64,000 bases of DNA. Source: Oscillospiraceae bacterium. Its GTDB lineage: Bacteria > Bacillota > Clostridia > Oscillospirales > CAG-272. The position numbers and the translations under genes are program-made. Shown here in pieces: positions 7,619 to 25,334 of the stretch; the first letter of the stretch is position 1, and every line of letters begins with the position of its first letter. A model generated the notes under the pieces. The model saw only the letters and a program-made list of their open reading frames with translations, was not told where the DNA came from and did no database searches. The stretch spans positions 3,212-67,211 of the forward strand of contig SVTO01000003.1 in the NCBI GenBank assembly GCA_015063745.1, in the 5' to 3' direction.

Positions 7619-7950
7619 GTGATTTCACCTTTTTTTGCAAAAGCACAGAGGCAGAAAAATACCGACTGGAATACATATTTTATGCCTTGTGAACGCAGAC
7701 TTTTGAAAAATACAGGGCCTGCTTCATACCCGAGTGTAAAACAGAACAAAACGGAAAATACAGTGACCAGCATTCCCGGTATTTCAAAAGTTGTGAGCCG
7801 ACTTAAGAAAAATGCGGTCAACAATGTACCGATGGTTGCGCCGACAGTAATATTGCCTATCTTAATGATACCGACACAGTATCCGACAGCAAGCGAAATG
7901 AATATTGCTAATATTGGATTATTTGATAAAAAATCTAAGATGATATCCAT
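7615..7950 (-). CDS. small membrane protein resembling the N-terminal ~100 aa of YidE/YbjL/AspT transporters (possible truncated remnant)
   Basis: 111-aa ORF with about 3 hydrophobic helices. ILAIFISLAVGYCVGIIKIGNITVGATIGTLL resembles the start of ~550-aa YidE/YbjL proteins. Its stop overlaps the sdaA ATG (ATGA at 7615-7618). Confidence 0.4.
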   Translation of the reverse strand: MDIILDFLSNNPILAIFISLAVGYCVGIIKIGNITVGATIGTLLTAFFLSRLTTFEIPGMLVTVFSVLFCFTLGYEAGPVFFKSLRSQGIKYVFQSVFFCLCAFAKKGEIT

Positions 7951-8142: not shown

Positions 8143-9441
8143 TCAAAATTTCTTTAATTCATTTATCTCCGGTGAAGGCAACTGCAGATAACCCCAATTT
8201 TTAGGTCTCCATATCCACTTTTGTTCGGCAGTCAACATGGTTTTCTGAAAACACAGACCAGGTACACAGTCGAGATCGGTATTCCCGCCCTGTTCACTTT
8301 TATTGAAAAACGTATAATATGTTTTGTATTCGGCATCCATAAGCATTGATATATCCAGTTCGACATTCATTTCGACTGTTTCATCTTTCTGCCCGGAATA
8401 AAAATCATATACTATATATGTGCCTATAGCTGTATCTTCGAGATTCAGTATTTCAATTCGCAAGCCGAGTTTCTCAACATCGGTGAGATTTTTCCATTTG
8501 AAATGTAACTTCATTGGTTCATTGCCTTCGAAACTTACGTTGTCTTTTCCGATATAGTCCGCTTCCAGCAATTTGATTCTGTGATAAACTACGAATGACG
8601 GGCGTTTGTATTCTTCATAATTGCGATAGAATGCATCATTCATCTGGCGATCCATATATATGCTGATAGCATCTTCCACATTTCCCTGAAATACGACCTG
8701 TCCTTTGTCAAGTACAACACAACGGTCGCAAAGCTGCCGGATCGTATTCATATTATGGGAAACGTACAGGACGGTTCTTCCGTCCCGGTTGGCGGCATCT
8801 TTCATCTTATCCAGACACTTTTTCTGGAATGCCATATCACCTACCGCAAGAACTTCGTCCATGATCATGATCTCACTGTCCAGATGTGCGGCTACGGAAA
8901 AGGCAAGTTTTACGTACATTCCGCTGGAATATCGTTTTACGGGTGTATCTATAAAATCACGTACTTCCGAAAATTCGATGATATCTTCCAGTTTCGCATC
9001 GATTTCGGCTTTTGTCATACCGAGAATGGCGCCGTTCAGGTAGATGTTCTCACGTCCCGTCATTTGGGGATTGAAGCCGGTACCGACTTCAAGCATGGAG
9101 GAAATACGGCCGTATATATCGATTTCTCCTTCTGTCGGTGCCGTAACACGGGAAAGGAGCTTGAGCATGGTAGACTTCCCTGCTCCGTTACCGCCGATAA
9201 TGCCCAGGGCTTCACCTTGATATACAGTAAGATCTATACCGTTCAGAGCCATAAAGGTTTTTCCGACAAGGCGCTGGTCGGTACCGATCATTGAATTCGG
9301 GTCTTCTTTTCCGCGTATTCTTGCCCATAGACTTTGCAGATCTGCTGTAAGGGTTCCTCCGCCGATTTGTCCGAGCTTGTACATTTTTTTGACGCCGGAC
9401 AGCTGAATGGCAACTTCTCTGTTATTCTGTTTGTTGTTCAT
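8143..9441 (-). CDS. polysaccharide/teichoic-acid ABC exporter ATPase with C-terminal substrate-binding extension (Wzt/TagH type)
   Basis: Start taken at ATG 9441 (MNNKQ, AGGAGG RBS) rather than the longer ORF. Walker A GGNGAGKST, signature YSSGM, Walker B IMIMDE. About 170 aa extend beyond the NBD. Confidence 0.85.
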   Translation of the reverse strand: MNNKQNNREVAIQLSGVKKMYKLGQIGGGTLTADLQSLWARIRGKEDPNSMIGTDQRLVGKTFMALNGIDLTVYQGEALGIIGGNGAGKSTMLKLLSRVTAPTEGEIDIYGRISSMLEVGTGFNPQMTGRENIYLNGAILGMTKAEIDAKLEDIIEFSEVRDFIDTPVKRYSSGMYVKLAFSVAAHLDSEIMIMDEVLAVGDMAFQKKCLDKMKDAANRDGRTVLYVSHNMNTIRQLCDRCVVLDKGQVVFQGNVEDAISIYMDRQMNDAFYRNYEEYKRPSFVVYHRIKLLEADYIGKDNVSFEGNEPMKLHFKWKNLTDVEKLGLRIEILNLEDTAIGTYIVYDFYSGQKDETVEMNVELDISMLMDAEYKTYYTFFNKSEQGGNTDLDCVPGLCFQKTMLTAEQKWIWRPKNWGYLQLPSPEINELKKF

Positions 9442-9452
9442 TTTCAGCCTCC

Positions 9453-10298
9453 TTATACGGTATCCATAAATGTTTTTTCCACGTGGTTGAAAATCATGAT
9501 TCCGACAAGCATTACGACTACCGTGATACCCCATGACAAGGCGTAACTGAACCAGGATACAGTTCCCTGTCCAAGTACGGCATACCGGAACAATTCAACC
9601 GGTGCGGTTACCGGATTTATCATCAGAACGTTTTTCATAAAGCCGTCGGAAAGCTGTGACAGGGGGTAAACGATCGGGGTGGCATACATCCACAGCTGAA
9701 TACCGAAGGTTACTACGATGGAGAGGTCACGGTATTTTGTGGTAAGGCTGGAGATGATGATGCCGCAGCCGAGCGAAAGAATACCAAGATGGAGCAATAC
9801 CAGCGGGATGAGCAGCCAGGACAGCCAATTCGGTGCGACTGCGCCTTTAATCAGGTAGTAGGTCATGAAAAGCAGCACCAGGATCATCTGCACGCCGAAT
9901 TGGATGACGGATTCGAGCACATGGGATATGGGCATTGTCAGGCGGGGGAAATAGACTTTTCCGAATACGCCGGCGTTATTGACGAAGACAGATGCGTTTT
10001 TCGTCAGGCTTGAGGAGAAATAGATCCATATGGCGTTACTGCAGAGGTAGAAAAGCATCTGCGGGATACCGTCTGTGGAAATTCCGGCGATGCCGCCGAA
10101 GACAAAGGCATAAACCATACTGCTGATCAGAGGGTTTAGAAAAATCCAGGCGGGTCCGAGGATGGTTTGTTTGTATGTAACCACGAATGACCGCTTTGTG
10201 AACAACAGGATCAGGTCGCGGTATTTCCAGACTTCACGGAGGTTTAAGTCGAACAGGCTATGATGGGCTGTTATATGGGTATGGTGTTGGCTTGACAT
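9453..10298 (-). CDS. ABC-2 type polysaccharide exporter permease (Wzm/TagG type)
   Basis: Multi-pass hydrophobic protein directly upstream of the ATPase. Start taken at ATG 10298 with a GAGGT RBS; the ORF track's 10322 start is a GTG. Confidence 0.8.
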   Translation of the reverse strand: MSSQHHTHITAHHSLFDLNLREVWKYRDLILLFTKRSFVVTYKQTILGPAWIFLNPLISSMVYAFVFGGIAGISTDGIPQMLFYLCSNAIWIYFSSSLTKNASVFVNNAGVFGKVYFPRLTMPISHVLESVIQFGVQMILVLLFMTYYLIKGAVAPNWLSWLLIPLVLLHLGILSLGCGIIISSLTTKYRDLSIVVTFGIQLWMYATPIVYPLSQLSDGFMKNVLMINPVTAPVELFRYAVLGQGTVSWFSYALSWGITVVVMLVGIMIFNHVEKTFMDTV

Positions 10299-10321
10299 GG
10301 TTACCTCATGTAAAAAATTCA

Positions 10322-11323
10322 CTAAAGCTGTTTTCGATATTTAGAAGGAATACACTCTGGAAAGTATTTTATAAATAATTTATATGCAAGGCCGACATTA
10401 ATTTGTAAAATTATATACGCACATTTTTTCATGCGACATATCGATTTGTTTAATAAAAACTCTAAATACCGTTTTCGCATTAATTTATCAATTCTGAAAT
10501 ATCTAATTCTTTGTGCTTTTTCTTTATAGTTTGTAAATTTGTACAACGAGTAAATTCTAAATAGTGTATCTAAAGCATGATTATACTGTTCGGTACTACG
10601 ATTTTTGAAATAACCCGTAATAAGCAAATGTTCTTCAAGATGGTCACATATTTTTTTTTCATTTAACAATCCTTGTGTTATGCTGTTCTGTCTTATGTAG
10701 TAATAATACAGTGGTATGTCAATCAAGGCTATAGAAGTACTCGCTTCCAAAAGAGATAACGTAATTGAGGTATCTTCGAAATACCTACCAACAGGGAACC
10801 TTATACTATCAAACAATCCTCTTTTATATATTCTCCTCCATACATACCCTAACAAACGCCATACATGATTTGGAAAAAAATCATGTAATAGTTCAGAAGA
10901 ATCATATAAACTGATATGGTGTGTTCCTGACAACTCTGATATTATCTCTGTATCATTTTCATAAACTCTCATAAATTCACACTGAACAATGTCAACCTCA
11001 TAATCTGTAGCAGTTTGATAAAGAGTTTCGTACATTGTCGAATGTACAAAGTCATCACTATCTACGAATCCAATATATTCTCCCTTGGCAATATCAAGTC
11101 CTGCATTCCGGGCCGCTGATAGTCCCTCATTTTCTTTATGAATAACAATAATTCGCGAATCAATTTTTGCATACTCATCACAAATTGTGGGACAGTTGTC
11201 AGGAGAACCATCGTCAACCAATATCAGTTCAAAATCTGTGAACGTCTGCTCAAGGATACTATCAATACAACGGCGCAAGTATAGTTCTACTTTATATACG
11301 GGAACAATAATACTTAATTTCAT
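10322..11323 (-). CDS. glycosyltransferase family 2
   Basis: 333 aa with GT-A N-domain IIVPVYKVELYL..VDDGSPDNC..DSDD. Confidence 0.85.
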   Translation of the reverse strand: MKLSIIVPVYKVELYLRRCIDSILEQTFTDFELILVDDGSPDNCPTICDEYAKIDSRIIVIHKENEGLSAARNAGLDIAKGEYIGFVDSDDFVHSTMYETLYQTATDYEVDIVQCEFMRVYENDTEIISELSGTHHISLYDSSELLHDFFPNHVWRLLGYVWRRIYKRGLFDSIRFPVGRYFEDTSITLSLLEASTSIALIDIPLYYYYIRQNSITQGLLNEKKICDHLEEHLLITGYFKNRSTEQYNHALDTLFRIYSLYKFTNYKEKAQRIRYFRIDKLMRKRYLEFLLNKSICRMKKCAYIILQINVGLAYKLFIKYFPECIPSKYRKQL

Positions 11324-11328
11324 GAGTT

Positions 11329-12504
11329 CTAGCTTTCTATAATATCATAAAGTTTCTGAAGTTCTTTTGTGTTATTATATTCTTCGTTTTTTAGATTTTC
11401 AACGAACTTTTGACGTATTTCGGGGTGGGCGAGGAGTGTTTTTATACCCTCGAAGAGAGCTTCTGGAGTCATTGTGTCTACAATAAGTCCGTTTTCGCCA
11501 CTTACAAATTGTTCACACATCCCCGGAGCGTCGGTAGTTACTATTGGTTTCTGAAGAATTTTAGCTTCTATGGTAGTTGTGCAATACCCTTCCGAAAAAG
11601 AAGGTTGCACATAGATATCGCAGTTTTTTATATAAGGATAAGGATTATTTTTTGTGCCGAGAAGAATTACATGATTGGATACATTGTGTTTTTCGATTTC
11701 CCGCTCGATTTCTTCACGAAGAGGCCCGTCACCTATAAGATACCAATAGATATCGTATCCGGCATCGACAAGCATTCTCGCAGTTGCAGGAATCATTTGT
11801 TGACCTTTTTTATTCGCTAAACGTCCAACCGTCACAATATTTTGTTGTCCATATTTCATCACGTTATGGGATTCCATTGACTTTGTTTTAATTGATAACT
11901 TATCTAATAAATTATAAATAACATGTGTGTTATTGTGGCGTAGATAATAAGTATTAAAATAATTTTTAATACTATGTGAAACACAAATAATATCAGAAAA
12001 TTTTTCAAACAATCTCGTAAATAGTTGAGCATTTCTACCCGTATAATCCCATTCGCCATGAATCCAAGCAATCTTTTTTTTACTGCGCAATCTATTTAAT
12101 GCCACAGACACCACAAGAGGATTGTATGCCTGATAAGCAATAACACAATCAAAAGACTCATCACATAGATTAGGTAAACACTTTTGTGAGTAATATCCAT
12201 TTAAAAGATAATTAGAGTAGTTCAATCTCGCCATAATGCGAAAAAACACCCCATATGCCACACTAAACAACTTAAGTTTTTGTAATTGAGTAAGAATTAA
12301 TTTTTTTGTTGAAATCATGTTCCAATACTCAATTTTGGTATTTGAGTTGATTCTATTTTTCCAAGCGCCAGAATCATTCTCTAAATACAAAGTAACATCA
12401 TATCTTGAATAATCTATGTGTTGTAATAGTTCAATAATTGCTTTTTCTACGCCTCCAACTATCAAAGGTCCCATTACAAATGCGATTTTTCTTTTTGTAT
12501 CCAT
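11329..12504 (-). CDS. glycosyltransferase family 4 (GT-B)
   Basis: 391 aa with C-terminal motif EGYCTTTIEAKILQKPIVTTD..ENGLIV. Confidence 0.8.
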   Translation of the reverse strand: MDTKRKIAFVMGPLIVGGVEKAIIELLQHIDYSRYDVTLYLENDSGAWKNRINSNTKIEYWNMISTKKLILTQLQKLKLFSVAYGVFFRIMARLNYSNYLLNGYYSQKCLPNLCDESFDCVIAYQAYNPLVVSVALNRLRSKKKIAWIHGEWDYTGRNAQLFTRLFEKFSDIICVSHSIKNYFNTYYLRHNNTHVIYNLLDKLSIKTKSMESHNVMKYGQQNIVTVGRLANKKGQQMIPATARMLVDAGYDIYWYLIGDGPLREEIEREIEKHNVSNHVILLGTKNNPYPYIKNCDIYVQPSFSEGYCTTTIEAKILQKPIVTTDAPGMCEQFVSGENGLIVDTMTPEALFEGIKTLLAHPEIRQKFVENLKNEEYNNTKELQKLYDIIES

Positions 12505-12547
12505 TTATAGCCCCTCTAATATATAACTGACCTAATTTGCATTACAT

Positions 12548-13714
12548 TTATTTTCCAAGATAAATCTCCTCAAATTTTGCAAACTTACTGTCATTATTCA
12601 AAATATGCTCCATCCCTGCATTATTTCTGATTTTTTCTACCAAAACAGGGTTGTCAACCAGGTATTTCAGTCCGTTATATAATCCCTCTTCGCTATTTTC
12701 CACGATCCAGCCTGTCTCACCGTGTAACAGTTGTTCGCGTATGCCTGATACATCGGTTGCCAGAACAGCGCATCCGAGCACCTTTGCTTCAACCGTTACA
12801 GTCGGAAAACCCTCCCAACCGGATGGAAGCACGAACAGATCGCAATTTTTCATGTATTTATATGGGTTATCGGTCACTCCGTCGAGATAAACACATTCAT
12901 CAAGACCGAGTTCTTCGATTTTCCGCACAATAGCATCGTATTCAACACCCGTTCCGAGAATATGCCACGAAAAAATATACCCCTGTTCCTTGAGTTTCGC
13001 GAGAATACCAAGAAATCTCAGGTATTTTTTCTGCTCTGTCATTCTACCGACAGACAACATTTTGAAGCATTCCTCTCTATATGAAAAAGCATTGTCCCCT
13101 TTTTCAATAATTGTATCTGTATCAAAAAAGTTATATATTGTATAAGTTTTAGATTCCAATTGCGGATATCTTTTTATGAAATTGATCCGTGCTGATTCCG
13201 CTACACAGATCACTGCATCCAATTTATCGTATTCGGCAACAATGCTGTCGCTTTTCTCCGGGTGTGCCATGTTGGCCACATCAATGTGATACCACTGAAT
13301 ATATTTTTTTGCTTTGATATTCTTGAGTAGAAAAGTCGGCGGTTCTGTTTCGAGGTAGTTTATGGCTACATCATATTTTTTATTTTTATAATGTTTTGCT
13401 GCGAGTTTTTCTGCGAATTGACGATAGCCGACAATCTTGCTGAATGTCAGTTTACAGCATCCGGTTAGTTTTCCTTTCAGAGAAGGATTCGACTTTATCT
13501 GTGCGAGTGAGGCATAGTATTTGTTGGTATATTCACTGCTGCAAATTGCATTGAATTTGACACGGTTGTCAAATTGCGGTTTGAGAAGTCCTTTTTCGTA
13601 GAGTTCAAGTACCTCGACTTCATGCCCGTGTGAAACAAGGTAATTGGCAAAGGAAACGAGTACCTTTTCTGCACCGCCGAATATGAGCTGTGGGATGTAG
13701 ATGAGAAATTTCAT
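12548..13714 (-). CDS. glycosyltransferase family 4 (GT-B)
   Basis: 388 aa with N-terminal GGAEKV and C-terminal EGFPTVTVEAKVLGCAVLATDVSG..ETGWIV. Confidence 0.8.
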   Translation of the reverse strand: MKFLIYIPQLIFGGAEKVLVSFANYLVSHGHEVEVLELYEKGLLKPQFDNRVKFNAICSSEYTNKYYASLAQIKSNPSLKGKLTGCCKLTFSKIVGYRQFAEKLAAKHYKNKKYDVAINYLETEPPTFLLKNIKAKKYIQWYHIDVANMAHPEKSDSIVAEYDKLDAVICVAESARINFIKRYPQLESKTYTIYNFFDTDTIIEKGDNAFSYREECFKMLSVGRMTEQKKYLRFLGILAKLKEQGYIFSWHILGTGVEYDAIVRKIEELGLDECVYLDGVTDNPYKYMKNCDLFVLPSGWEGFPTVTVEAKVLGCAVLATDVSGIREQLLHGETGWIVENSEEGLYNGLKYLVDNPVLVEKIRNNAGMEHILNNDSKFAKFEEIYLGK

Positions 13715-14565
13715 AATCCGATCCTCTTGAGAACTTCTGGGCCGATTTCATAGCTTTTGACATCGTGTTTGGTGATACGTTTTTCTTCTGGATAAGGCTC
13801 ACGCCATTTAGGGCCATAACGATGTTCAAGATCTTTTATCGGTTCGCCGATAGTCATAAGTTCTGTGTCTTCGAAAGGTACCATGATGGGGTTTTCATAA
13901 CTTTCTCGTGGAATGAGATCATTTTCATATCCGCTGACACCTGTATACGGATTCTTCCCGGTATAACTCAGAAGCCCCATGTATTTTGTTTTTTTGTTAT
14001 TATATTGCATAGTCAGAGAGTCGATGATATTGCCGAGCTTCACTCTGTCGATATGAGACAGAAGAGAGAGTGCCTTTGTTGGAATACTTTGGGGAATTAT
14101 CTCTCCCTGTTTGATTTGAACAGCTGCGTCAAAGAACCATATAAGCTTTTGCTGGATTTTTCTCTGCCATCTTTTATCTGGTGCTGAATCGAGTGGCACG
14201 ATATCGACTGCAACTTCGGGATGAAGGTTTTCCGGATCCTCATGATAGTGGATCACCTTCGTTCCAAGAACACGTAAGACCGTGCGGTTATTTTTATATT
14301 TCGGATCTGTTTTATAATTGTGTACGAAATACTTATCCGAATACTGCGCCTGAAGGATCGAAAGAAGCCGATCATAGTCACTACGAGTCAGCGATATATC
14401 CACATCATCGTCCCAGGGGATAAAGCCTTTATGATTAATTGCGCCGAGGAGGGTCCCCGCGTGCAGATAATACCGCAGGCCATTTTCACGGCAGATCTTG
14501 TCGATATCTTTCATTGCGGAGAGCAATACTTTATGTAGTAGCTCGTTACCGTATTCGTTGGTCAT
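13711..14565 (-). CDS. LicD-family phosphotransferase (phosphocholine / polyol-phosphate transfer to glycan)
   Basis: Motif LHAGTLLGAINHKGFIPWDDDVDISL. Start taken at ATG 14565 (MTNEYG), which forms an ATGA overlap with the upstream GT2 stop. Confidence 0.8.
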   Translation of the reverse strand: MTNEYGNELLHKVLLSAMKDIDKICRENGLRYYLHAGTLLGAINHKGFIPWDDDVDISLTRSDYDRLLSILQAQYSDKYFVHNYKTDPKYKNNRTVLRVLGTKVIHYHEDPENLHPEVAVDIVPLDSAPDKRWQRKIQQKLIWFFDAAVQIKQGEIIPQSIPTKALSLLSHIDRVKLGNIIDSLTMQYNNKKTKYMGLLSYTGKNPYTGVSGYENDLIPRESYENPIMVPFEDTELMTIGEPIKDLEHRYGPKWREPYPEEKRITKHDVKSYEIGPEVLKRIGL

Positions 14566-15545: not shown

Positions 15546-15547
15546 TT

Positions 15548-17706: not shown

Positions 17707-17714
17707 TTTTAACC

Positions 17715-18830: not shown

Positions 18831-18839
18831 AATACTTCC

Positions 18840-19979
18840 TTACCAGAGCGAAGCGATATAATCAAAGAAATTCATTTGCGGATAGCCGATATCAAAGGGA
18901 CGGATGATGGCGTGTTCGTAATAAAAATAGCCGAGATAGCCTACGATACATAAAATAATCAGAATCGTGCGTTGTCTTGGTGTCCAGCGTTTCAGCAAAA
19001 ACGGCAGTGTTATGATCTGTCCGGGCAGGAAATAGTTTGCCAGGCGGGCAAAATAGTTCGCTGTTCCAAACAATCCAACGAACATGATCAGCGCGTTCAG
19101 CATTGCTAAGTTGAACATTAGATTGTCCGTTTTCGTCGAATTTTCAAACGTCTTTCTTCCTCCCAGCAATGCCATCATCAGAGGTACAAAGGAAACAAGT
19201 ACGCGGAATATATTGACCCCCTCTCCTACAAAAGAGGTTTCGTCATAATTGGCACCCATCATGTCTGTAATATCGAGTACGACACCCAGGAGATTTTCCA
19301 GCAGGAAACCTATGGAAATAAATACCGCCATGTAAATGAATGTTCGTTTAGTCCAAGGCTTAAACATCAGGAACAGTACCAGCAGATAAACCATTGAATA
19401 CGGGTGGAACATGGTAGCCAGACCTATACAAACGATATACCGTATCCACTTTTTGTCCAGAGCGGCAGAAATAGATAACAAGCAAAAAGCTGTTGCCATG
19501 CATTGTTTTATGGCAGCCAGCGTAAAGGTATAGAATCCGGTTGTAAACATAAGAAACACACCGAAAACCATTGATTTTGAGTAACGGCGCACGAAAAAAA
19601 CATACGGAATTATGTTTGCAAAAGCGTAAAAAATCAGAACATCCTGAAATGTGAAATGTAAGGTTTTGAGAATACTGTTGACAAACGACAATCCGATACC
19701 GTCTGCGAAATCAGGCAATTCGTTTGCTAAAAATCCCTCCAGATCAGGAGTCAGATACTCGTAGATTTCACGATAGGTGCCTGTATCATTTCCCCAGGTA
19801 CGCAGTCCGCAGAAAAACGCCAGGATCACTGTCAGAAGTACCGTGAAAAAAACATCCTTTCTGGATGATCCGGAAGCTGCCAGATTTTTGTCTCTTATAT
19901 CTATGATCAGGGCGATCAGCAATGAGACCGCCAGTAATACCCATAATCTTGTCACGCTGTTATGTCCTCGATGGAGCAT
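18840..19979 (-). CDS. EpsG-family polytopic membrane protein (putative polysaccharide polymerase)
   Basis: 379 aa with about 10 hydrophobic segments. N-terminal GNDTGTYREIYEYL is typical of EpsG-like proteins. Confidence 0.6.
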   Translation of the reverse strand: MLHRGHNSVTRLWVLLAVSLLIALIIDIRDKNLAASGSSRKDVFFTVLLTVILAFFCGLRTWGNDTGTYREIYEYLTPDLEGFLANELPDFADGIGLSFVNSILKTLHFTFQDVLIFYAFANIIPYVFFVRRYSKSMVFGVFLMFTTGFYTFTLAAIKQCMATAFCLLSISAALDKKWIRYIVCIGLATMFHPYSMVYLLVLFLMFKPWTKRTFIYMAVFISIGFLLENLLGVVLDITDMMGANYDETSFVGEGVNIFRVLVSFVPLMMALLGGRKTFENSTKTDNLMFNLAMLNALIMFVGLFGTANYFARLANYFLPGQIITLPFLLKRWTPRQRTILIILCIVGYLGYFYYEHAIIRPFDIGYPQMNFFDYIASLW

Positions 19980-19998
19980 TCTCTCCGCAAATATACTG

Positions 19999-20817
19999 TT
20001 ACTGCGTCGGAACGCCTTTTAGTTTCTTTCTGTGCAAATACGAATAAATTGTTTTCGGCAACAAGCCGACGATGATCGGACGAAGCATAAATACATACTT
20101 CCATTTGGGAAGTCTCAGTGTTTTTATCACCGTTTTTACCATCCGGGCCTCGTTCAGACGGTATCTGAACCTTCGTCTTTCTGCCGCATTTCGGTCGTCA
20201 CGCATTTTATAAAGCGGTTCGGACAGGTTTTTACCCTGATGACCAAGCGCGTAAATTTTCAGCCAGAGATGCCAGTCCTCTACTCGCAGCAGATTTTTAT
20301 CTTCTGTATACCCTCCGACTGTCTGCATAACTTCTGTACGTATGATACAAGGTGCATGACAGTGAACCGGCCCGTGAACTAGACTTTCCTTCACGGGATA
20401 TTCAGTGCAGGTAATGTAACCGGAAAAATCCCCCTCCTCATCAAAGTGAATCATGGTTGTGCTTACGACCGCAATTTCCGGCTCGTTTTCAAGTACATTC
20501 CGTTCAACCTCGAATCTGTTTGGAAGAGAAATATCATCGCCGTCCATGCGGGCAATATATTTTCCGGTAGCATACTTGAGGCAATGGTTGAGGGTATAAT
20601 TAAGCCCCCTGTTGCGCTCGTTTCGGATGAGAATGATCTTAGCCGGATATTTCTTTTGATATTCACCGGCAACGGCATATGTGTCGTCGGAAGAACCGTC
20701 ATCACACATGATCAATTCCCAGTTCTTATACGTTTGATTTATTATAGAATCTATAGCTTCCGGTAAAGTGGCGGCGCAGTTATAGATACCCATAATTACA
20801 GATATTTCAGCACTCAT
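19999..20817 (-). CDS. glycosyltransferase family 2
   Basis: 272 aa with ISVIMGIYNCAATL..CDDGSSDDT..ARMDGDD. Confidence 0.8.
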   Translation of the reverse strand: MSAEISVIMGIYNCAATLPEAIDSIINQTYKNWELIMCDDGSSDDTYAVAGEYQKKYPAKIILIRNERNRGLNYTLNHCLKYATGKYIARMDGDDISLPNRFEVERNVLENEPEIAVVSTTMIHFDEEGDFSGYITCTEYPVKESLVHGPVHCHAPCIIRTEVMQTVGGYTEDKNLLRVEDWHLWLKIYALGHQGKNLSEPLYKMRDDRNAAERRRFRYRLNEARMVKTVIKTLRLPKWKYVFMLRPIIVGLLPKTIYSYLHRKKLKGVPTQ

Positions 20818-21325
20818 CGTTATTCTCTTTGATTATGATTCTGTTTTCGGCACATACTACCGTTGCTCCGTCGGGAACATCTTTTGTTACAACACACCCT
20901 GCACCGATTTTCACATTGTTTCCGATATGAACACCACCAATAATTTTTGCACCTGCGCCAATACTAACATTGTCTCCAAGTGTCGGCGCACCGTCTTTGC
21001 CTTCGCCGATTGTTACCTGATGGAATATGGTACAGTTTCTGCCGATTGCTGCATTATGCGAAACGATTATACCGTTCAGACCGTGTGGCAGACGGGGCGG
21101 TTCTGCGAATACAGCGCCGCAATTCCGATGAGTTCCCATGGATGCGTTATTAAAGGCATCGGCTCGCTTAATATAGTACAGGCGGATCATGTCGCCGAAT
21201 TTCGTTCCTCTCTTGGGATCCACAACAATACTGCGGTATTTCCAATACTTTTTTTGATTATAGCGCTGAACAACAGAGCGCATATGTTCTTCCATACCGG
21301 AAAGTTTAATGTCGTTGTAAGCCAT
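20807..21325 (-). CDS. hexapeptide-repeat O-acetyltransferase (serine acetyltransferase-like)
   Basis: 172 aa with left-handed beta-helix repeats (IGRNCTIFHQVTIG, LGDNVSIGAGAKIIGGVHIGNNVKIGAGCVV). Confidence 0.75.
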   Translation of the reverse strand: MAYNDIKLSGMEEHMRSVVQRYNQKKYWKYRSIVVDPKRGTKFGDMIRLYYIKRADAFNNASMGTHRNCGAVFAEPPRLPHGLNGIIVSHNAAIGRNCTIFHQVTIGEGKDGAPTLGDNVSIGAGAKIIGGVHIGNNVKIGAGCVVTKDVPDGATVVCAENRIIIKENNDEC

Positions 21326-22433
21326 CTGTCATTCCATCCATCGTAATTTTCACAATCATTGTCTTATCAAACAAAGCAATCATACGTTCACGGCCCGCTT
21401 TACCCATTGTTTCGCGTTCTTCAGGCGATAAATTACAGAAGCGTTTCATCATACTGTATAGGCTTTCTTCATCTCTGACTTCACATAAATACCCGGTTAC
21501 ATCGTTCTCAACTGCTTCCATGCAACCGTTGATATTGCTTGTGATTACCGGTCTTCCGCAGGAGGCGGCTTCCAAAAGTACGTTGGACATACCTTCATGA
21601 TAACTTGGCAGAACAACACAGTGGGCTGTCTCGTAAAATTGCTTTATGTCAGTCTGATAACCGTGGAAATTGATGATCCCGTCCGCTTGCAACGTATTGA
21701 TTCTCAGCTGATAAGATTCTTCGAACAATCCGACTACATCCAAAATTACATTATCACCGTAGTCAGCTTTCAGTCTGATCATTGCTTCGAACAGTTCCTC
21801 CACACCTTTTTCTTTCATGATACGGCCGACAAATAAAAATCGGAGCGTATTTTCCTTTGGATATGGCAGCAAGGGATATTCGTTCGTATCAACTCCCGCT
21901 CCACGCAGGACTCTGGTATTATCTTTCTTTACAGCCCCGGCTTTTACCATCATGTCACGGTTGCCTTCATTTTCGAAAAAAATAATCTTCGCGTTTTTCA
22001 GTCCGGTTTTATACATGGCAAGAACCAGTCTGCGAAGCAATCCACCGCCTTCAATAGCAGACCCGAGTCCGGTGATATTGGATACAAACGGCACTTTCTT
22101 TTTACGGCAAGCGAGTCCGCCGTATATATTGGGTTTGATGGTATAGGCAATCACCAGATCAGGTCTAATTAATTTGACTATGCTGAGGTACTTTCTATAC
22201 AATCTGATATCTCTCAGGGGATTCATGCCGCGGCGTTCCAATTCTACTGCTACAAAACAGCATCCCAGTTTTTCTAATTCAGGTATGAACTCTCCCTCTG
22301 GAAGGGCGATATAGACCTCATTTTCCATTCGGATCAGTTCCTTCAACAATGCTTTGCGAAACTTATAGAGACCCATATCAAAGTTTGCCAGAACGAGAAT
22401 TCGCTTATTTTTTATGAGCCGGGACTCCGACAT
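21306..22433 (-). CDS. glycosyltransferase family 4 (GT-B)
   Basis: EGMSNVLLEAASCGRPVITSNINGCMEAV..VTGYL. ATG 22433 (MSESRL) preferred over GTG 22442. Confidence 0.8.
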   Translation of the reverse strand: MSESRLIKNKRILVLANFDMGLYKFRKALLKELIRMENEVYIALPEGEFIPELEKLGCCFVAVELERRGMNPLRDIRLYRKYLSIVKLIRPDLVIAYTIKPNIYGGLACRKKKVPFVSNITGLGSAIEGGGLLRRLVLAMYKTGLKNAKIIFFENEGNRDMMVKAGAVKKDNTRVLRGAGVDTNEYPLLPYPKENTLRFLFVGRIMKEKGVEELFEAMIRLKADYGDNVILDVVGLFEESYQLRINTLQADGIINFHGYQTDIKQFYETAHCVVLPSYHEGMSNVLLEAASCGRPVITSNINGCMEAVENDVTGYLCEVRDEESLYSMMKRFCNLSPEERETMGKAGRERMIALFDKTMIVKITMDGMTDGLQRH

Positions 22434-23010
22434 ATACTCCACTCTCCGAAATATCCTTCACAACAACAGCACCAGCTCCAATGATGCATCCGCCGCATAT
22501 TGTGGTATTATTTTTGACTGCTGCACCGATTCCTATATGAGTCCCCTGCCCTATTTTAACCGTTCCCCCAAGGGATGCTGCCGGTGATATGTGTACATAA
22601 TCGGCGAGAAGGTTATTGTGCTCGACAATGGAACCGGTATTGATGATGCAGTGACTGCCGACTTCTGCTTCCGCATTGATTACTGCATTCGGCATTACTG
22701 CGCATCCTTGTCCGATCTTTGCATACGATGATACTACAGCACGCGGATGAATGGCTGTATACCATTCTGCATCCATGGATTCAGCAAGGTTCTGTCTTAT
22801 GGCATTATTTCCGATAGCGATGATGAACTTATTGTTTTCGTATTTCCGATATTCTGTGATATTCCCGAGTACAGGTACGCCGAGAACAGTACTGTCTTTG
22901 GCAAGACTGTCGTCCAGAATACCGACTACGGTATCTCCGGCAGTTCGGATACAATCTATGACTACTTTGGCATGACCGCCGCCGCCGATAACGATGACCT
23001 GTTCAGACAT
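22405..23010 (-). CDS. NeuD/PglD-family amino-sugar N-acetyltransferase
   Basis: Start at ATG 23010 (MSEQVIVIGGGGHAKVVIDCI). N-terminal nucleotide-binding-like fold followed by hexapeptide repeats. Confidence 0.75.
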   Translation of the reverse strand: MSEQVIVIGGGGHAKVVIDCIRTAGDTVVGILDDSLAKDSTVLGVPVLGNITEYRKYENNKFIIAIGNNAIRQNLAESMDAEWYTAIHPRAVVSSYAKIGQGCAVMPNAVINAEAEVGSHCIINTGSIVEHNNLLADYVHISPAASLGGTVKIGQGTHIGIGAAVKNNTTICGGCIIGAGAVVVKDISESGVYVGVPAHKK

Positions 23011-23644
23011 TGATCTGCTCCTTTGTTCCCATAAACTCCTCCATCGTTGCTGAAGTTTCGGACGATATTCCCTCTCTGACAAATACACAGCGGATTGTCA
23101 GGAAAATTACTTTTAAATCTGTAATAAAACCGATATTCTTTACATACCACACATCATGGGCAAACCGCTCTTCCCAAGAAAGCAGATTGCGGCCGTGTAC
23201 CTGTGCCCAGCCGGTGAGTCCCGGGCGTACATCATGGCGGTGTTTTTGCTCTTCGTTATATCTGGGAAGATATCTTACCAACAGCGGTCTGGGGCCTACG
23301 ATGCTCATGTCACCCTTAAAGATATTCCACAGTTCGGGCAGTTCATCCAATGACAATGCGCGCAGTTTTTTTCCGAACGGTGTAAGACGTTCTTCATCAG
23401 GAAGAGGAACCCCTGTTGTCGGATCAACCGCATCGCGCATTGTACGGAACTTGTACAATTTGAATATCCTTTCCTCTTTGCCGGGACGTTCCTGACAGAA
23501 AATCACAGGACTTCCCAGCTTGGTTCTCACTAAGATTGCCGTGATCAGCAAAATCGGCGAAAGTACGATTAATGCAATGCCGGACAGAAGGATATCGAGA
23601 AAACGCTTTATGTATTTTTCGTAAAATGTTGGTTTATGTTCCAT
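23003..23644 (-). CDS. small monotopic polyprenyl-phosphate sugar-phosphate transferase (PglC/EpsL-like initiating enzyme)
   Basis: Start at ATG 23644 (MEHKPTFYEKY). One N-terminal hydrophobic helix, then PVIFCQERPGKEERIFKLYKFRTM and LDELPELWNIFKGDMSIVGPRP. Confidence 0.85.
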   Translation of the reverse strand: MEHKPTFYEKYIKRFLDILLSGIALIVLSPILLITAILVRTKLGSPVIFCQERPGKEERIFKLYKFRTMRDAVDPTTGVPLPDEERLTPFGKKLRALSLDELPELWNIFKGDMSIVGPRPLLVRYLPRYNEEQKHRHDVRPGLTGWAQVHGRNLLSWEERFAHDVWYVKNIGFITDLKVIFLTIRCVFVREGISSETSATMEEFMGTKEQINV

Positions 23645-23652
23645 TGTTTTCC

Positions 23653-24774
23653 TTAAAACATAGATTGAATAACAGTGCAGACACGATCTACGTCGTCCAT
23701 TGACATTTTTGTGTCGCTGGGCAGACACAGACCTTGCTTAAACAGTTCCTCGGAGACAGACCGGTTTTCGATCATCACATACGGTGCACCGGCAAATACA
23801 GGTTGACTGTGCATCGGTTTCCACAGCGGTCTGCTTTCCATATTGTTTTCGTTCAGTTTTTCTATCAGTGTCATCGGGGCAACACCGCATCCGCTCTCGA
23901 GCAGGATTGAGGTAAGCCAGCAGTTGGAAACTGTATTTTCAGATATGGGCTGAAATGAAATGGGCAACTTTGCAAGATTTTTCCTGTATCTTTGATAAAT
24001 ACTCTGTTTCTTGGCTATCCGCTCAGGCAAAACTTTCATCTGGCCTCGTCCGATACCGGCGCAGATATTACTCATGCGGTAGTTGTAACCGATTTCTTCG
24101 TGTTGGTACCACGGGAACGGTTCACGTGCCTGTGTTGCCAGTTTCAGGGCGTGTTCAGCGTTTGCTTTTTCTTCGCATACAAGCATACCGCCGCCCGATG
24201 TGGTTATGATTTTGTTTCCGTTAAAGGATAAAATGCCGAATTTGCCGAATGTACCGCACTTTTTCTCCCGGTATGTACTGCCCATTGCTTCTGCGGCATC
24301 CTCTATCAGCGGGATTTTGTATCTGTCACAGATTGCGCAGATCTCATCCAGCTTGGCAGGATTACCGTACAGGTGTACCGCGATGACGGCTTTAGGAACT
24401 CCGTAAAGCTTTATTGCTTTTTCCAGTGCGGACGGATCCATATTCCATGTCTCGCGCTCGCTGTCGATAAAAACCGGTTCTGCACCTACATAGGTTATCG
24501 GATTGGCAGATGCTGAAAAGGTCAAGTCCTGGCAGAAAACTTTGTCCCCGCTTTCGACGCCGGCACAAATAAGGGCAAGATGAATGGCGGAAGTACCGGA
24601 CGCCAATGCTACTGTATTTTTTGCGCCAAGGTATTTCTTTACGGTACTTTCAAACTCGGTTACATTTTCTCCCAGAGGTGCAATCCAGTTTTTTTGAAAT
24701 GCATCATGGATATACGCCAGCTCATAGCCTTCTTCAGACATATGGGGGGCAGATAAATAAATATGTTCAGACAT
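23653..24774 (-). CDS. DegT/DnrJ/EryC1-family PLP aminotransferase (PglE/EpsN-like)
   Basis: LASGTSAIHLAL and SFNGNKIITTSGGGML (PLP lysine context). Start taken at ATG 24774 (MSEHIYL) with a GGGAG RBS; ATG 24828 is an alternative. Confidence 0.8.
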   Translation of the reverse strand: MSEHIYLSAPHMSEEGYELAYIHDAFQKNWIAPLGENVTEFESTVKKYLGAKNTVALASGTSAIHLALICAGVESGDKVFCQDLTFSASANPITYVGAEPVFIDSERETWNMDPSALEKAIKLYGVPKAVIAVHLYGNPAKLDEICAICDRYKIPLIEDAAEAMGSTYREKKCGTFGKFGILSFNGNKIITTSGGGMLVCEEKANAEHALKLATQAREPFPWYQHEEIGYNYRMSNICAGIGRGQMKVLPERIAKKQSIYQRYRKNLAKLPISFQPISENTVSNCWLTSILLESGCGVAPMTLIEKLNENNMESRPLWKPMHSQPVFAGAPYVMIENRSVSEELFKQGLCLPSDTKMSMDDVDRVCTVIQSMF

Positions 24775-24881
24775 AAATGCCGCTCCCGTTTGCGTTTTTG
24801 CTTTTAATGGTTCTTTGTTGTGAATCATACAGTTCCATTTATTTCCGGCATAATTTTTGGTAAATCAGACTTATGCCGGTC

Positions 24882-25124
24882 TCATTGTATCTCCTGATCA
24901 AGAGCATCAAATTCAGGCGTACTGAAAAACTGGCCGAGGGTTATCTCAAATCCGTCACACAGTTTTTTGATGTTCACAATTCCCGGATTTTTGCTCTCGC
25001 CGTTTAATATACTTTTAACCGTCGCCTGTGGGACGCCGGAAATGATACTGATGCCATTCGGAGTTATTCCGCGTTCTTTACACAACTCCCGAATCCTCTT
25101 CGCCACTGTCTGCTGTGTATTCAT
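24882..25124 (-). CDS. XRE-family helix-turn-helix transcriptional regulator
   Basis: 80 aa from ATG 25124 (MNTQQTVAKRIRELCKERGITPNGISIISGVPQATVKSILNG). Sits directly upstream of, and co-oriented with, the glycan locus. Confidence 0.75.
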   Translation of the reverse strand: MNTQQTVAKRIRELCKERGITPNGISIISGVPQATVKSILNGESKNPGIVNIKKLCDGFEITLGQFFSTPEFDALDQEIQ

Positions 25125-25334
25125 CCGTCTTTCAACCCACTTACTTAATATGTTTTCAACATATTTATACAACATGTCACAATATATGATACACCAAACA
25201 CGCTGATTTTGTTAGTGATAACTCACTACTTATTCCCTTTCGTTTAAAATCTTACAATAAACATTGCTAAAAGTATCGCTATAACAAGTACATTCAGGAT
25301 AATGCTGGCAATGTACTTCAGAAATCTCAAAATT

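What the first reader, a model, noticed from the sequence alone, without database searches (positions are those of the whole stretch)
8143..25124. 17-gene surface-glycan locus with hybrid ABC-exporter / EpsG-polymerase architecture
All genes are on one strand with gaps of 43 nt or less, or with overlaps. In transcription order the genes are:
- XRE regulator;
- PLP aminotransferase;
- PglC-like phosphoglycosyltransferase;
- PglD/NeuD-like N-acetyltransferase;
- GT4;
- O-acetyltransferase;
- GT2;
- EpsG-like polytopic protein;
- three GT4;
- GT2;
- LicD;
- two GT4;
- GT2;
- Wzm permease;
- Wzt ATPase.

Export by Wzm/Wzt implies a fully cytoplasmic, ABC-dependent assembly route. An EpsG/Wzy-like polymerase normally belongs to the Wzx/Wzy route. 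No Wzx flippase, chain-length regulator or LCP ligase is present in the window. With nine GTs plus LicD and two acetyltransferases, the product should be a complex, phospho-substituted heteropolymer of unknown structure.
Basis: partly seen in the sequence, partly recalled or inferred. Interest (0 to 1): 0.6.

Follow-up and report, generated by a model that had tools for sequence, protein, structure and literature searches.

The report
Sugar-coat gene cluster with swapped exporter
A gut Clostridia bacterium carries an intact 18-gene cluster for a complex surface sugar polymer in which the usual "flippase" of the polymerase-dependent pathway has been replaced by an ABC pump. The same swap recurs in several related species, so the two textbook assembly routes appear to be mixed here.

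Summary
Window 8143-25175 (minus strand) carries 18 tightly packed genes, not 17, and every family assignment was reproduced by Pfam/NCBIfam. The 64-kb window has no Wzx, chain-length regulator, LCP ligase or 4,6-dehydratase.

The EpsG-like gene is intact and under strong purifying selection. It keeps the conserved outer-face residues of the family.

Orthologous loci in Oscillospiraceae/Clostridia MAGs share the module aminotransferase-PGT-PglD-GT4-...-EpsG. About 30 end in a Wzx flippase. Seven, including this one, end in Wzm-Wzt. None with EpsG visible shows both.

L016, L165 and L166 carry almost the same glycosyltransferase set (50-84% identity). They have Wzx where this locus has GT4-GT2-Wzm-Wzt. 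On an EpsG tree the ABC association arose at least four times.

Wzt carries a C-terminal beta-domain like the carbohydrate-binding domain of Aquifex Wzt.

Best reading (about 0.45): an Und-PP-linked unit primed by a diNAcBac-type sugar and about ten sugars long is exported by Wzm/Wzt in place of Wzx, then polymerised outside by EpsG.

Rivals are an EpsG acting as ligase and a Wzx encoded elsewhere. I found no published precedent. This is a new variant of known kinds, supported by comparative evidence only.

The parts
24882..25175 (-). XRE/Cro-C1-type HTH regulator. The start may be M18 at 25124.
   Evidence: Pfam HTH_26 at 36 bits and HTH_3. No homologue at this position in related loci.
23653..24828 (-). 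PLP sugar aminotransferase of the DegT/PglE/EpsN/LegC type. The likely start is 24774 (373 aa).
   Evidence: PF01041 at 328 bits. TIGR04181 LegC family at 380 bits, below its cut-off of 420. Gene call.
23003..23728 (-). Small monotopic polyprenyl-phosphate phosphoglycosyltransferase, PglC/EpsL-like. The likely start is 23644 (213 aa).
   Evidence: PF02397 Bac_transf at 209 bits. 53-84% identical in related loci.
22405..23088 (-). PglD/NeuD/EpsM-type N-acetyltransferase. The likely start is 23010 (201 aa).
   Evidence: PglD_N plus Hexapep. TIGR03570 at 223 bits, above its cut-off of 160.8.
21306..22442 (-). GT4 (GT4a), PglA/EpsD-like. Probably the first glycosyltransferase acting on the primer.
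   Evidence: Glycos_transf_1 plus Glyco_trans_4_2. Conserved directly after PglD in nearly all related loci. The EpsD analogy is from PMC10653937.
20807..21325 (-). Hexapeptide O-acetyltransferase, WcaB/SAT-like.
   Evidence: Hexapep at 47 bits. NCBIfam EpsC/CysE/WcaB hits, all below cut-off.
19999..20817 (-). GT2 (GT2a), similar to B. subtilis EpsE.
   Evidence: PF00535 at 119 bits. NF053739 EpsE at 301 bits, below its cut-off of 450. No transmembrane hairpin.
18840..19979 (-). EpsG-family polytopic GT-C-like protein, the Wzy-type polymerase candidate. The likely start is GTG 19955 (371 aa).
   Evidence: - PF14897 at 130 bits.
- 1483 homologues, typically about 371 aa long among the closest.
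- AF2 model with pLDDT 85.9 and about 10 TM helices.
- Foldseek best hits are PglB and AftA.
- Under purifying selection.
- Conserved residues are retained.
17715..18830 (-). GT4 (GT4b).
   Evidence: Orthologues 60-74% identical in both Wzx-type and ABC-type loci.
16657..17718 (-). GT4 (GT4c).
15548..16684 (-). GT4 (GT4d).
   Evidence: Present in ABC-type L009, L164 and L167 and in Wzx-type L016.
14562..15545 (-). GT2 (GT2b).
13711..14637 (-). LicD-family phosphotransferase, which adds a phospho-alcohol or phosphocholine-type substituent. The likely start is 14565 (284 aa).
   Evidence: PF04991 at 138 bits. No CDP-alcohol synthase in the locus.
12548..13714 (-). GT4 (GT4e). This is the last gene shared with the Wzx-type orthologous loci.
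   Evidence: In L016 and L166, Wzx follows this gene directly.
11329..12504 (-). GT4 (GT4f). Part of the 3' module that is absent from the Wzx-type comparators L016, L165 and L166.
10322..11323 (-). GT2 (GT2c). GT2c-like genes often sit next to Wzm in conventional ABC-type loci.
9453..10322 (-). Wzm ABC-2 permease. The likely start is 10298 (281 aa).
   Evidence: PF01061 at 70 bits. 86-87% identical in L009 and L167.
8143..9534 (-). Wzt ATPase with a C-terminal beta-sandwich domain, a putative carbohydrate-binding domain. The likely start is 9441 (432 aa).
   Evidence: - ABC_tran; NCBIfam TagH/Wzt-type hits.
- AF2 C-terminal region 270-432 is all-beta with pLDDT 85-97.
- Foldseek top hits are full-length A. 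aeolicus Wzt over about 425 columns.
- The 71%-identical homologue P0297 hits Wzt_C.

Best explanation
This is an intact operon for a large, O-acetylated, phospho-substituted surface heteroglycan in an uncultured gut Oscillospiraceae/Ruminococcaceae bacterium.

Proposed pathway:
1. Priming. A 2,4-diacetamido-trideoxyhexose (diNAcBac-type) sugar is made by a dehydratase encoded elsewhere plus the aminotransferase and the PglD-type acetyltransferase. The small PGT puts it on undecaprenyl phosphate.
2. Elongation. Nine soluble GTs, LicD and the O-acetyltransferase extend this primer in the cytoplasm to a unit of about ten sugars.
3. Export. The locus descends from a Wzx/EpsG(Wzy)-dependent locus family. 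Here the 3'-terminal Wzx has been replaced by a GT4-GT2-Wzm-Wzt module. The Wzm/Wzt exporter, whose Wzt carries a carbohydrate-binding-type domain, recognises the finished unit and moves the Und-PP-linked glycan across the membrane in place of Wzx.
4. Polymerisation. EpsG, a Wzy-type GT-C enzyme with its conserved residues on the outer face, then joins exported units into the polymer.

What is shown: gene content, conservation, the transporter swap and its recurrence, the intact EpsG, and the CBD-like domain.

What is inferred: the identity of the primer sugar, that Wzm/Wzt carries the same lipid-linked unit that EpsG uses, and that EpsG polymerises.
For: 1. Every family assignment is confirmed.

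2. Orthologous loci with nearly the same GT set carry Wzx exactly where this locus has GT4f-GT2c-Wzm-Wzt.
- L016: PGT 83%, GT4b 74%, GT4d 66%, LicD 84%, GT4e 65% identity. Its next ORF is 60% identical to the Pfam-confirmed L166 Wzx.
- L165 and L166 show the same pattern.

3. Among EpsG loci with a visible transporter, 30 have Wzx only, 7 have Wzm(/Wzt) only, and none has both.
- The 30 Wzx-only loci are 29 from the count plus L165.
- The seven are the window, L001+L167, L009, L164, L039, L072 and L089; L001 is placed there through its continuation L167.
- Two ABC-type loci can be seen from end to end, the window and L001+L167. Neither holds a Wzx.

4. On an EpsG NJ tree the ABC-associated genes fall in four separate places, with a Fitch minimum of 4 changes. 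The pairing has therefore been assembled repeatedly.

5. EpsG is under purifying selection within ABC-type loci: pN 0.13-0.17, pS 0.68-0.81 and saturated. R52, D57, Y61, Q151, H184, N282, N300, R304 and Y308 are kept in all seven ABC-associated EpsG proteins.

6. EpsG is the only Wzy candidate in the Wzx-type relatives whose gene calls were seen, and PF14897 is an accepted Wzy family (PMC10715181).

7. The Wzt top structural matches are CBD-bearing A. aeolicus Wzt chains over about 425 columns. NBD-only entries align over about 255. A Wzt_C hit appears in a 71%-identical homologue.

8. ABC-type EpsG loci have 8 or more GTs between the PGT and the exporter, against a median of 5 (range 3-8) in Wzx-type loci. 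This fits recruitment of a channel-type exporter for very large units.

9. ABC-type and MOP-type lipid-linked-glycan flippases can substitute for each other in other systems: Wzk for MurJ (PMC4990322), and PglK/Wzx (my own knowledge).
Against: - There is no experimental evidence of any kind, and the organism is uncultured.
- Only 64 kb of this genome is visible, so a Wzx encoded elsewhere cannot be excluded. L. lactis uses a flippase (CflA) from another locus for three systems (PMC9574508).
- Every characterised Wzm/Wzt system exports a cytoplasmically completed polymer and needs no Wzy. A CBD on Wzt normally goes with chain-terminating caps on polymers.
- L109 shows Wzx, five GT2 genes and Wzm-Wzt on one strand, so dual systems may exist in this group.
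- The window's own Wzt C-terminus gives no Pfam hit, and the NBD part of the model is poor.
- No PCP/Wzz co-polymerase lies nearby. The same is true of the Wzx-type relatives whose flanks were seen.
- The GT-count correlation rests on few ABC loci.
Confidence: 0.45

Rival explanations
1. Classical ABC-dependent route. The whole chain, including any repeating domain made by iteratively acting GTs such as GT4f/GT2c, is finished in the cytoplasm. It is capped, recognised by the Wzt CBD and exported. EpsG does not polymerise. It acts as a ligase or oligosaccharyltransferase-like GT-C that moves the exported Und-PP-linked chain onto its final acceptor: another glycan, a lipid anchor or a surface protein.
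For: - Wzt resembles the CBD-bearing transporters of capped polymers.
- The best structural matches of the EpsG model are PglB and AftA, not a polymerase.
- Ligase-like Wzy_C proteins do occur in related Wzm/Wzt loci such as L139 and L157.
- Ligases and polymerases fall in related GT-C clans (PMC10920833).
- There is no LCP or other attachment enzyme in the locus.
Against: - EpsG proteins 52-55% identical (L012, L015, L016, L021) sit in Wzx-type loci. In the fully annotated Wzx-type relatives L165 and L166 (39-43% identical) EpsG is the only possible Wzy.
- The same conserved residues are kept in both contexts.
- All nine GTs are single-domain. They differ from the Wzx-type comparator L016 by only two extra GTs, so nothing marks a polymerising GT.
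- The Foldseek hits are weak (E 0.04-0.9, TM at most 0.5).
Confidence: 0.2
2. Two pathways sit side by side or cooperate, as in lactococcal or enterococcal rhamnose-rich wall polysaccharides. The PGT-to-GT4e genes plus EpsG make a Wzy-type unit that is flipped by a Wzx encoded elsewhere in the genome. GT4f, GT2c and Wzm/Wzt make and export a separate polymer primed by a TagO/WecA-type enzyme encoded elsewhere. The two products may be joined outside the cell.
For: - Relatives of this Wzm/Wzt (47-75% identity) mostly sit in GT2-rich loci with no PGT or EpsG within 10 kb.
- A GT2c-like gene often accompanies Wzm.
- L109 has Wzx followed by five GT2 genes and Wzm-Wzt.
- Known dual-chain systems combine an ABC exporter with a GT-C polymerase (PMC9574508, PMC7188991).
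- The dehydratase is already encoded off-locus here, so off-locus components are plausible.
Against: - Wzx and Wzm/Wzt are mutually exclusive at the same 3' position in 37 EpsG loci.
- Every known dual-chain system keeps its Wzx in the locus (PMC9574508).
- Two extra GTs are few for a separate polymer pathway, and there is no second initiating transferase in 64 kb.
- The swap recurs in at least four EpsG lineages. That would need the loss of the in-locus Wzx and reliance on a trans copy each time.
Confidence: 0.2
3. The arrangement is a recent, non-functional accident: a deletion or recombination removed Wzx, or the MAG was mis-assembled. On this reading the EpsG half is on its way to decay.
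For: - Low-GC mosaic composition.
- A truncated permease gene at the 3' boundary.
- Wzx fragments or split Wzx genes in relatives L020 and L017.
Against: - The same architecture is assembled independently in several samples and species: L001, L002 and L003 from three records, plus L009, L164 and L167.
- All 18 ORFs are intact.
- Synonymous sites are saturated while EpsG stays conserved.
- Making Und-PP-linked units without export would sequester the lipid carrier and be selected against (general knowledge).
Confidence: 0.03

Closest known systems
Wzx/Wzy-dependent EPS/CPS loci of Firmicutes, in particular Bacillus subtilis epsA-O (EpsN/EpsM/EpsL/EpsD/EpsE/EpsG/EpsK)
   Same: - Aminotransferase, PglD-type acetyltransferase and small PGT, the enzyme types that in B. 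subtilis make and transfer diNAcBac, followed by a PglA/EpsD-like GT4 (PMC10653937).
- An EpsE-like GT2 (301 bits).
- An EpsG-family polytopic protein.
- The orthologous MAG loci do end in a Wzx, like EpsK.
   Different: - No Wzx/EpsK, no EpsAB-type chain-length regulator and no EpsC dehydratase in the window.
- Nine GTs rather than five.
- LicD is present.
- Export genes are Wzm/Wzt.
- The primer sugar is inferred from enzyme families, not shown.
ABC-transporter-dependent O-polysaccharide export by CBD-bearing Wzm/Wzt (E. coli O9a, Aquifex aeolicus; PDB 7k2t, 8dku, 8dl0)
   Same: - ABC-2 permease plus a Wzt/TagH-type ATPase at the end of a GT operon.
- The C-terminal beta-domain matches full-length A. 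aeolicus Wzt.
- The CBD concept is described in PMC7685785.
   Different: - Those systems have no Wzy-type protein. They start from WecA-type GlcNAc-1-P transferases and use few, often multi-domain, polymerising GTs plus a dedicated terminator.
- Here there is a PglC-type PGT, nine single-domain GTs and a conserved EpsG.
Dual-chain rhamnose-rich cell-wall polysaccharides (Lactococcus lactis cwps; Enterococcus faecalis EPA)
   Same: One locus combines an ABC exporter with a GT-C polymerase that works on lipid-linked oligosaccharide units outside the membrane. Phospho-substituted units are common (PMC9574508, PMC7188991).
   Different: - Those loci always include a Wzx-family flippase (WpsG or an Epa Wzx), rhamnose synthesis genes, two separate initiating enzymes and a further GT-C or LCP for joining.
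- None of these is present here.
ABC-type flippases of lipid-linked glycans that replace MOP flippases (H. pylori Wzk, C. jejuni PglK)
   Same: They give a functional precedent: an ABC protein can move an Und-PP-linked glycan that a Wzx/MurJ-type protein would otherwise move (PMC4990322; PglK/Wzx interchange from my own knowledge). PglK also works on a diNAcBac-primed glycan.
   Different: - Wzk and PglK are single-polypeptide MsbA-like exporters, not two-component Wzm/Wzt channels.
- Their products are ligated or transferred to protein, not polymerised by Wzy.
S-layer glycan loci of Geobacillus/Aneurinibacillus (Wzm/Wzt plus the polytopic transferase WsaB)
   Same: A Gram-positive, PGT-initiated, ABC-exported glycan handled outside the membrane by a polytopic membrane transferase encoded in the same locus (PMC2943079).
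   Different: - WsaB is a Wzy_C/O-antigen-ligase-family oligosaccharyltransferase, not an EpsG-family protein.
- No S-layer gene or rhamnose pathway is seen here.

Membership tests
Wzx/Wzy-dependent pathway | Initiating polyprenyl-phosphate phosphoglycosyltransferase in the locus | tested here: met
   PF02397 at 209 bits, window 23003-23728.
Wzx/Wzy-dependent pathway | Wzy-type polytopic polymerase (Pfam EpsG, Wzy_C or O-ag_pol_Wzy) | tested here: met
   PF14897 at 130 bits. The gene is intact, conserved and under selection. Polymerase activity itself is not testable here.
Wzx/Wzy-dependent pathway | MOP-family Wzx flippase | tested here: not met
   No Polysacc_synt/MOP protein in 64 kb by Pfam of the large ORFs, by six-frame Wzx HMM or by tblastn. 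The rest of the genome is not visible.
Wzx/Wzy-dependent pathway | Chain-length regulator or co-polymerase (Wzz/CpsC-CpsD) | tested here: not met
   None in the window. Also not seen in the visible flanks of related loci. L164 has CpsB downstream.
ABC-transporter-dependent pathway (Wzm/Wzt) | ABC-2 permease plus Wzt/TagH-type ATPase encoded with the GTs | tested here: met
   PF01061 and PF00005. NCBIfam TagH/Wzt-type hits. Foldseek hit to A. aeolicus WzmWzt at E 1e-26.
ABC-transporter-dependent pathway (Wzm/Wzt) | Carbohydrate-binding domain on Wzt (the subclass with capped chains) | tested here: inconclusive
   - A confident all-beta C-terminal domain.
- Full-length Wzt chains are the best structural matches.
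- Wzt_C hit at 26.9 bits, below the cut-off, in a 71%-identical homologue.
- The window's own C-terminus gives no Pfam hit. Ligand binding is untested.
ABC-transporter-dependent pathway (Wzm/Wzt) | Polymer completed in the cytoplasm; no Wzy-type enzyme required | tested here: not met
   A conserved EpsG/Wzy-type gene is an integral, selected part of the locus. Where polymerisation takes place is not testable with these tools.
Dual-chain Rha-CWPS (L. lactis cwps / E. faecalis epa) | Rhamnan genes (rmlABCD, Rgp GTs), two initiating enzymes, a Wzx flippase, and a GT-C or LCP for joining | tested here: not met
   No rml genes, only one initiating transferase, no Wzx and no LCP. The defining features are taken from PMC9574508.
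Three/four-component extracytoplasmic glycosylation (GtrB/CsbB-like GT2 + GtrA or Wzx flippase + GT-C) | Membrane-anchored GT2 making Und-P-sugar, together with a small GtrA-type or Wzx flippase | tested here: not met
   None of the three GT2 proteins has a transmembrane hairpin. There is no room for a small 4-TM gene in the tightly packed operon, and no Wzx.
diNAcBac (bacillosamine) primer pathway (PglF/E/D/C; EpsC/N/M/L) | 4,6-dehydratase, aminotransferase, N-acetyltransferase and a small PGT | tested here: inconclusive
   Aminotransferase, acetyltransferase and PGT are present. The dehydratase is absent from the window, but lies beside related loci L164, L004 and L165. The sugar identity is not testable here.

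The most novel reading that the evidence does not exclude
A two-component Wzm/Wzt channel-type ABC exporter, guided by its carbohydrate-binding domain, serves as the flippase for very large Und-PP-linked repeat units. These units are then polymerised outside the membrane by a Wzy-type (EpsG) enzyme. This would be a third, mixed assembly route. It would have arisen repeatedly in gut Oscillospiraceae by swapping Wzx for Wzm/Wzt at the end of otherwise orthologous loci.
Probability: 0.38. Interest if true: 0.8.

Novelty: new variant of a known kind. Interest (0 to 1): 0.58.

Why it matters
Bacterial surface glycans are sorted into Wzx/Wzy-dependent, ABC-dependent and synthase-dependent routes. 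Genome annotation, capsule and O-antigen typing tools, and glycoengineering all rely on that split.

Here orthologous loci differ mainly in Wzx versus Wzm/Wzt while keeping a selected Wzy-type enzyme. That gives a natural experiment on three questions:
- whether the two export machines are interchangeable;
- what limits the size of unit a Wzx can flip;
- what a Wzt carbohydrate-binding domain reads on a non-polymeric substrate.

The loci are abundant in human and animal gut metagenomes. More than 120 clusters of Wzt at 68% identity or above were listed. The product is therefore probably a common, uncharacterised surface antigen of gut Clostridia.

Tried and rejected
- A profile search of EpsG against PDB sequences gave only noise.
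- Promoter/terminator consensus scans were uninformative. Promoter-like sites were fewer than in shuffles and there was no clear terminator after Wzt.
- No Rfam family was found in the window. No inverted repeat lies upstream of the operon, so there is no sign of an invertible promoter here.
- Literature searches for a described Wzy + Wzm/Wzt system without Wzx found none.
- Rejected: EpsG as a pseudogene.
- Rejected: assembly artefact, because there are independent assemblies.
- Rejected: three-component side-chain glycosylation.
- Rejected: Wzx remnant hidden in the locus.
- Rejected: GT4d as an ABC-specific marker, because it also occurs in Wzx-type L016.
- A correlation between GT2c similarity and Wzt similarity was looked at and was not convincing.
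- L168, the context of a Wzt homologue named by its source as Dysosmobacter sp. (read from a Logan assembly), did not reach far enough upstream to show whether EpsG is present.

Full report
**Observation**

ORF listing shows an unbroken run of minus-strand ORFs from 8143 to 25175. In transcription order the genes are:
- an HTH (XRE-type) regulator;
- a DegT/LegC-like PLP aminotransferase;
- a small Bac_transf phosphoglycosyltransferase (PGT);
- a PglD/NeuD-type N-acetyltransferase (above the TIGR03570 cut-off);
- GT4;
- a hexapeptide O-acetyltransferase;
- an EpsE-like GT2;
- an EpsG-family polytopic protein (PF14897, 130 bits);
- three GT4;
- GT2;
- LicD;
- two GT4;
- GT2;
- an ABC-2 permease (Wzm);
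- an ABC ATPase (Wzt).

That makes 18 genes, not 17. The window is part of JGI metagenome contig Ga0318466_10007314, 80 kb. One of its proteins is named by NCBI as coming from a Ruminococcaceae/Oscillospiraceae MAG. Independent gene calls on that contig agree.

With those start sites all junctions are overlaps or gaps of at most 43 nt. The exception is XRE to aminotransferase, at 53-107 nt. GC drops to 35-45% in the locus against about 47-53% outside it.

**Surroundings**

Both flanks are housekeeping genes.
- On one side: YitT, a GDSL lipase, DeoR and a 2-oxoacid dehydrogenase complex.
- On the other side: a truncated Asp-Al_Ex permease fragment, serine dehydratase and a polysaccharide deacetylase.

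I found no Wzx/MOP flippase, Wzz/CpsCD regulator or LCP ligase in the 64 kb. Three searches support this: Pfam of the large ORFs, a six-frame search with a Wzx HMM built from related loci, and tblastn with Wzx proteins.

The UDP-GlcNAc 4,6-dehydratase that the aminotransferase/acetyltransferase pair needs is also absent. It lies beside related loci L164, L004 and L165.

**Is the EpsG gene real and functional?**

- It has 1483 database homologues with E at most 0.001, typically about 371 aa long among the closest.
- An AlphaFold model built on 26 homologues is confident (pLDDT 85.9) and shows about ten membrane helices.
- Among ABC-type loci (the window, L001, L009, L164), non-synonymous differences are 0.13-0.17 per site. 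Synonymous sites are saturated at 0.68-0.81. This indicates strong purifying selection.
- Positions conserved in 29 Wzx-associated EpsG proteins are G50, R52, D57, Y61, Q151, H184, N282, N300, R304 and Y308. All seven ABC-associated proteins keep them.
- By the positive-inside rule, the R52-Y61 cluster lies in the first external loop near the N-terminus. This is my inference. It resembles what the CAZy survey of polysaccharide polymerases describes for one inverting clan (PMC10920833).
- PF14897 is one of the three Pfam families to which Wzy polymerases belong (PMC10715181).

**Comparative genomics, the main result**

A scan of one genome per species found 77 loci encoding EpsG relatives. Most by far come from Oscillospiraceae and other Clostridia MAGs. 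Nearly all share the 5' module aminotransferase-PGT-PglD-GT4-...-EpsG.

The 3' ends fall into two classes:
- Many end in a polytopic protein of about 510 aa. Several of these are Pfam Polysacc_synt (Wzx). The rest belong to the same family by an HMM built from them.
- A minority end in Wzm(-Wzt). These are L009 (Candidatus Flemingiibacterium; EpsG 76%, Wzm 86%), L039 (Faecousia), L072 (Bianqueaceae), L164, L001 with its continuation L167, and L089, which has a very divergent EpsG.

Counting loci with EpsG and a visible transporter gives 30 with Wzx only, 7 with Wzm only, and none with both (plus L165 and L001).

The most telling comparators are L016, L165 and L166. They have orthologues of almost every biosynthetic gene here. 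In L016 the identities are PGT 83%, GT4a 68%, GT4b 74%, GT4c 65%, GT4d 66%, LicD 84% and GT4e 65%. In these loci a Wzx follows GT4e directly, or follows one further GT2. The window has GT4f-GT2c-Wzm-Wzt at that position.

On a neighbour-joining tree of EpsG, the ABC-associated proteins sit in four separate places. At least four changes of transporter type are needed.

The window's upstream GDSL-lipase flank is conserved with L001 at 74% identity. The locus therefore occupies the same chromosomal site in a related species.

**The exporter**

Close Wzt homologues are very numerous. The scored set was capped at 8000 candidates, and all 120 clusters listed are at least 68% identical.

The AlphaFold model is poor in the ATPase part because the alignment is shallow. 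It is confident (pLDDT 85-97) for an all-beta C-terminal domain, residues about 270-432.

The best PDB matches are the full-length, CBD-bearing Wzt chains of the Aquifex aeolicus O-antigen transporter, aligned over about 425 columns. ATPase-only entries align over about 255 columns.

A 71%-identical homologue hits Pfam Wzt_C just below its cut-off. The window's own C-terminus does not hit. So Wzt probably carries a carbohydrate-binding domain. In known systems such a domain reads a terminal cap on a finished chain (PMC7685785).

Relatives of this Wzm at 47-75% identity mostly sit in conventional GT2-rich ABC loci with no EpsG in view. The Wzm-Wzt module therefore appears to have been borrowed from ordinary ABC-dependent loci. 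It often has a GT2c-like gene beside it.

**How it most likely works**

Shown:
- an intact, conserved operon;
- a recurrent exchange of Wzx for Wzm/Wzt at the same position in orthologous loci;
- a selected, catalytically intact EpsG in both contexts;
- a CBD-like domain on Wzt.

Inferred:
- The primer is a diNAcBac-type sugar on undecaprenyl phosphate, by analogy with B. subtilis EpsC/N/M/L and EpsD (PMC10653937).
- Nine single-domain GTs, LicD and the O-acetyltransferase build a unit of about ten sugars.
- Wzm/Wzt exports that Und-PP-linked unit in place of Wzx.
- EpsG polymerises it on the outer face.

A possible reason for the swap is unit size. ABC-type EpsG loci have eight or more GTs between the PGT and the exporter. 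Wzx-type loci have a median of five, range 3-8.

Interchange of ABC-type and MOP-type flippases has precedent in other protein families: Wzk for MurJ (PMC4990322), and PglK/Wzx from my own knowledge. I put this reading at about 0.45.

**Rivals**

(a) Classical ABC route, with EpsG acting as a ligase-like transferase for the exported chain (about 0.2).
- For: the CBD; Wzy_C ligase-like genes in other Wzm/Wzt loci.
- Against: EpsG relatives sit in Wzx-type loci, where in the annotated cases they are the only possible Wzy; nothing marks a polymerising GT.

(b) Two pathways, with a Wzx encoded elsewhere (about 0.2).
- For: this cannot be excluded from 64 kb; L109 shows Wzx, five GT2 genes and Wzm-Wzt together; L. 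lactis shares an off-locus flippase among systems (PMC9574508).
- Against: the mutual exclusivity; all known dual-chain loci keep their Wzx in the locus.

(c) A non-functional accident or mis-assembly (about 0.03).
- Against: independent assemblies and the evidence of selection.

Side-chain glycosylation by a three-component system is rejected. No GT2 here has a membrane hairpin, and there is no small flippase gene.

**Comparison with what is known**

The locus works partly like a B. subtilis eps-type Wzy pathway and partly like a CBD-type Wzm/Wzt pathway. It fails one defining test of each:
- it has no Wzx and no co-polymerase;
- it has a Wzy-type enzyme.

It is not a member of the lactococcal/enterococcal dual-chain class, because it has no rhamnan genes, no second initiator and no Wzx.

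Full-text searches found no description of a Wzy-type enzyme working with Wzm/Wzt without Wzx. In E. coli the two gene sets are presented as alternatives (PMC7685785).

I rate it a new variant of known kinds. The evidence is comparative only, and the mechanism remains a hypothesis.

Noticed in passing
window 7615-7950 (-): A 111-aa ORF matches only the first ~97 of 167 profile positions of the Asp-Al_Ex permease family. It lies immediately downstream of Wzt and overlaps the start of the serine dehydratase gene. It looks like a truncated permease remnant marking the 3' boundary of the glycan island.
   Followed up: partly
window, whole 64 kb; L164 19077-20972; L165 20125-21144; L004 1-248: The UDP-GlcNAc 4,6-dehydratase (Polysacc_synt_2) needed upstream of the aminotransferase/acetyltransferase pair is absent from the window. 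It is present next to related loci. In L164 it follows Wzt and is followed in turn by a CpsB-type phosphatase gene.
   Followed up: partly
L001/L002/L003 3309-4813: The orthologous ABC-type locus in a related MAG is preceded by a small HTH gene, a DUF6514 gene and a serine resolvase. This suggests possible DNA-inversion control. The window has no resolvase and no inverted repeat upstream.
   Followed up: partly
L020 15606-15905; L017 17271-18835: Two related loci show damaged Wzx genes: a 100-aa Wzx fragment in L020 and a Wzx split into two ORFs in L017. These are either Wzx decay in progress or assembly errors.
   Followed up: no
L109 1183-2733 and downstream: A metagenome contig carries a Wzx, then five GT2 genes, then Wzm-Wzt on one strand. 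The contig end hides what lies upstream. This may be a true dual Wzx + ABC locus.
   Followed up: no
window 3736-4302 (-): A 188-aa ORF has a zinc-ribbon-like CxxC...CxxC motif followed by a C-terminal run of repeated EECCC(C)EE(K/N) units. It is unusually rich in cysteine and glutamate. The coding score is good (0.278), and JGI's precomputed annotation lists no Pfam family.
   Followed up: no
window 61300-62382 (+): A 360-aa ORF has about 7 predicted transmembrane segments, no Pfam hit and a low coding score. It is unclear whether this is a real gene.
   Followed up: no
window 26296-27099 (+) vs L001 2-556: The GDSL lipase flanking the locus is 74% identical to the one flanking the orthologous locus in L001. 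The other flank differs: serine dehydratase here, BlaI/BlaR-like genes in L167. The glycan island therefore sits at a conserved site with one variable border.
   Followed up: partly
L001/L167 and L163 (GINT1_N, GNAT, GT8, 257-aa genes); L164 (DUF6625): Close ABC-type relatives carry extra genes inserted between GT2b and Wzm: a GINT1_N-domain protein, a GNAT acetyltransferase, a GT8 and a DUF6625 protein. The middle of the locus is a hot spot for gene gain and loss.
   Followed up: no
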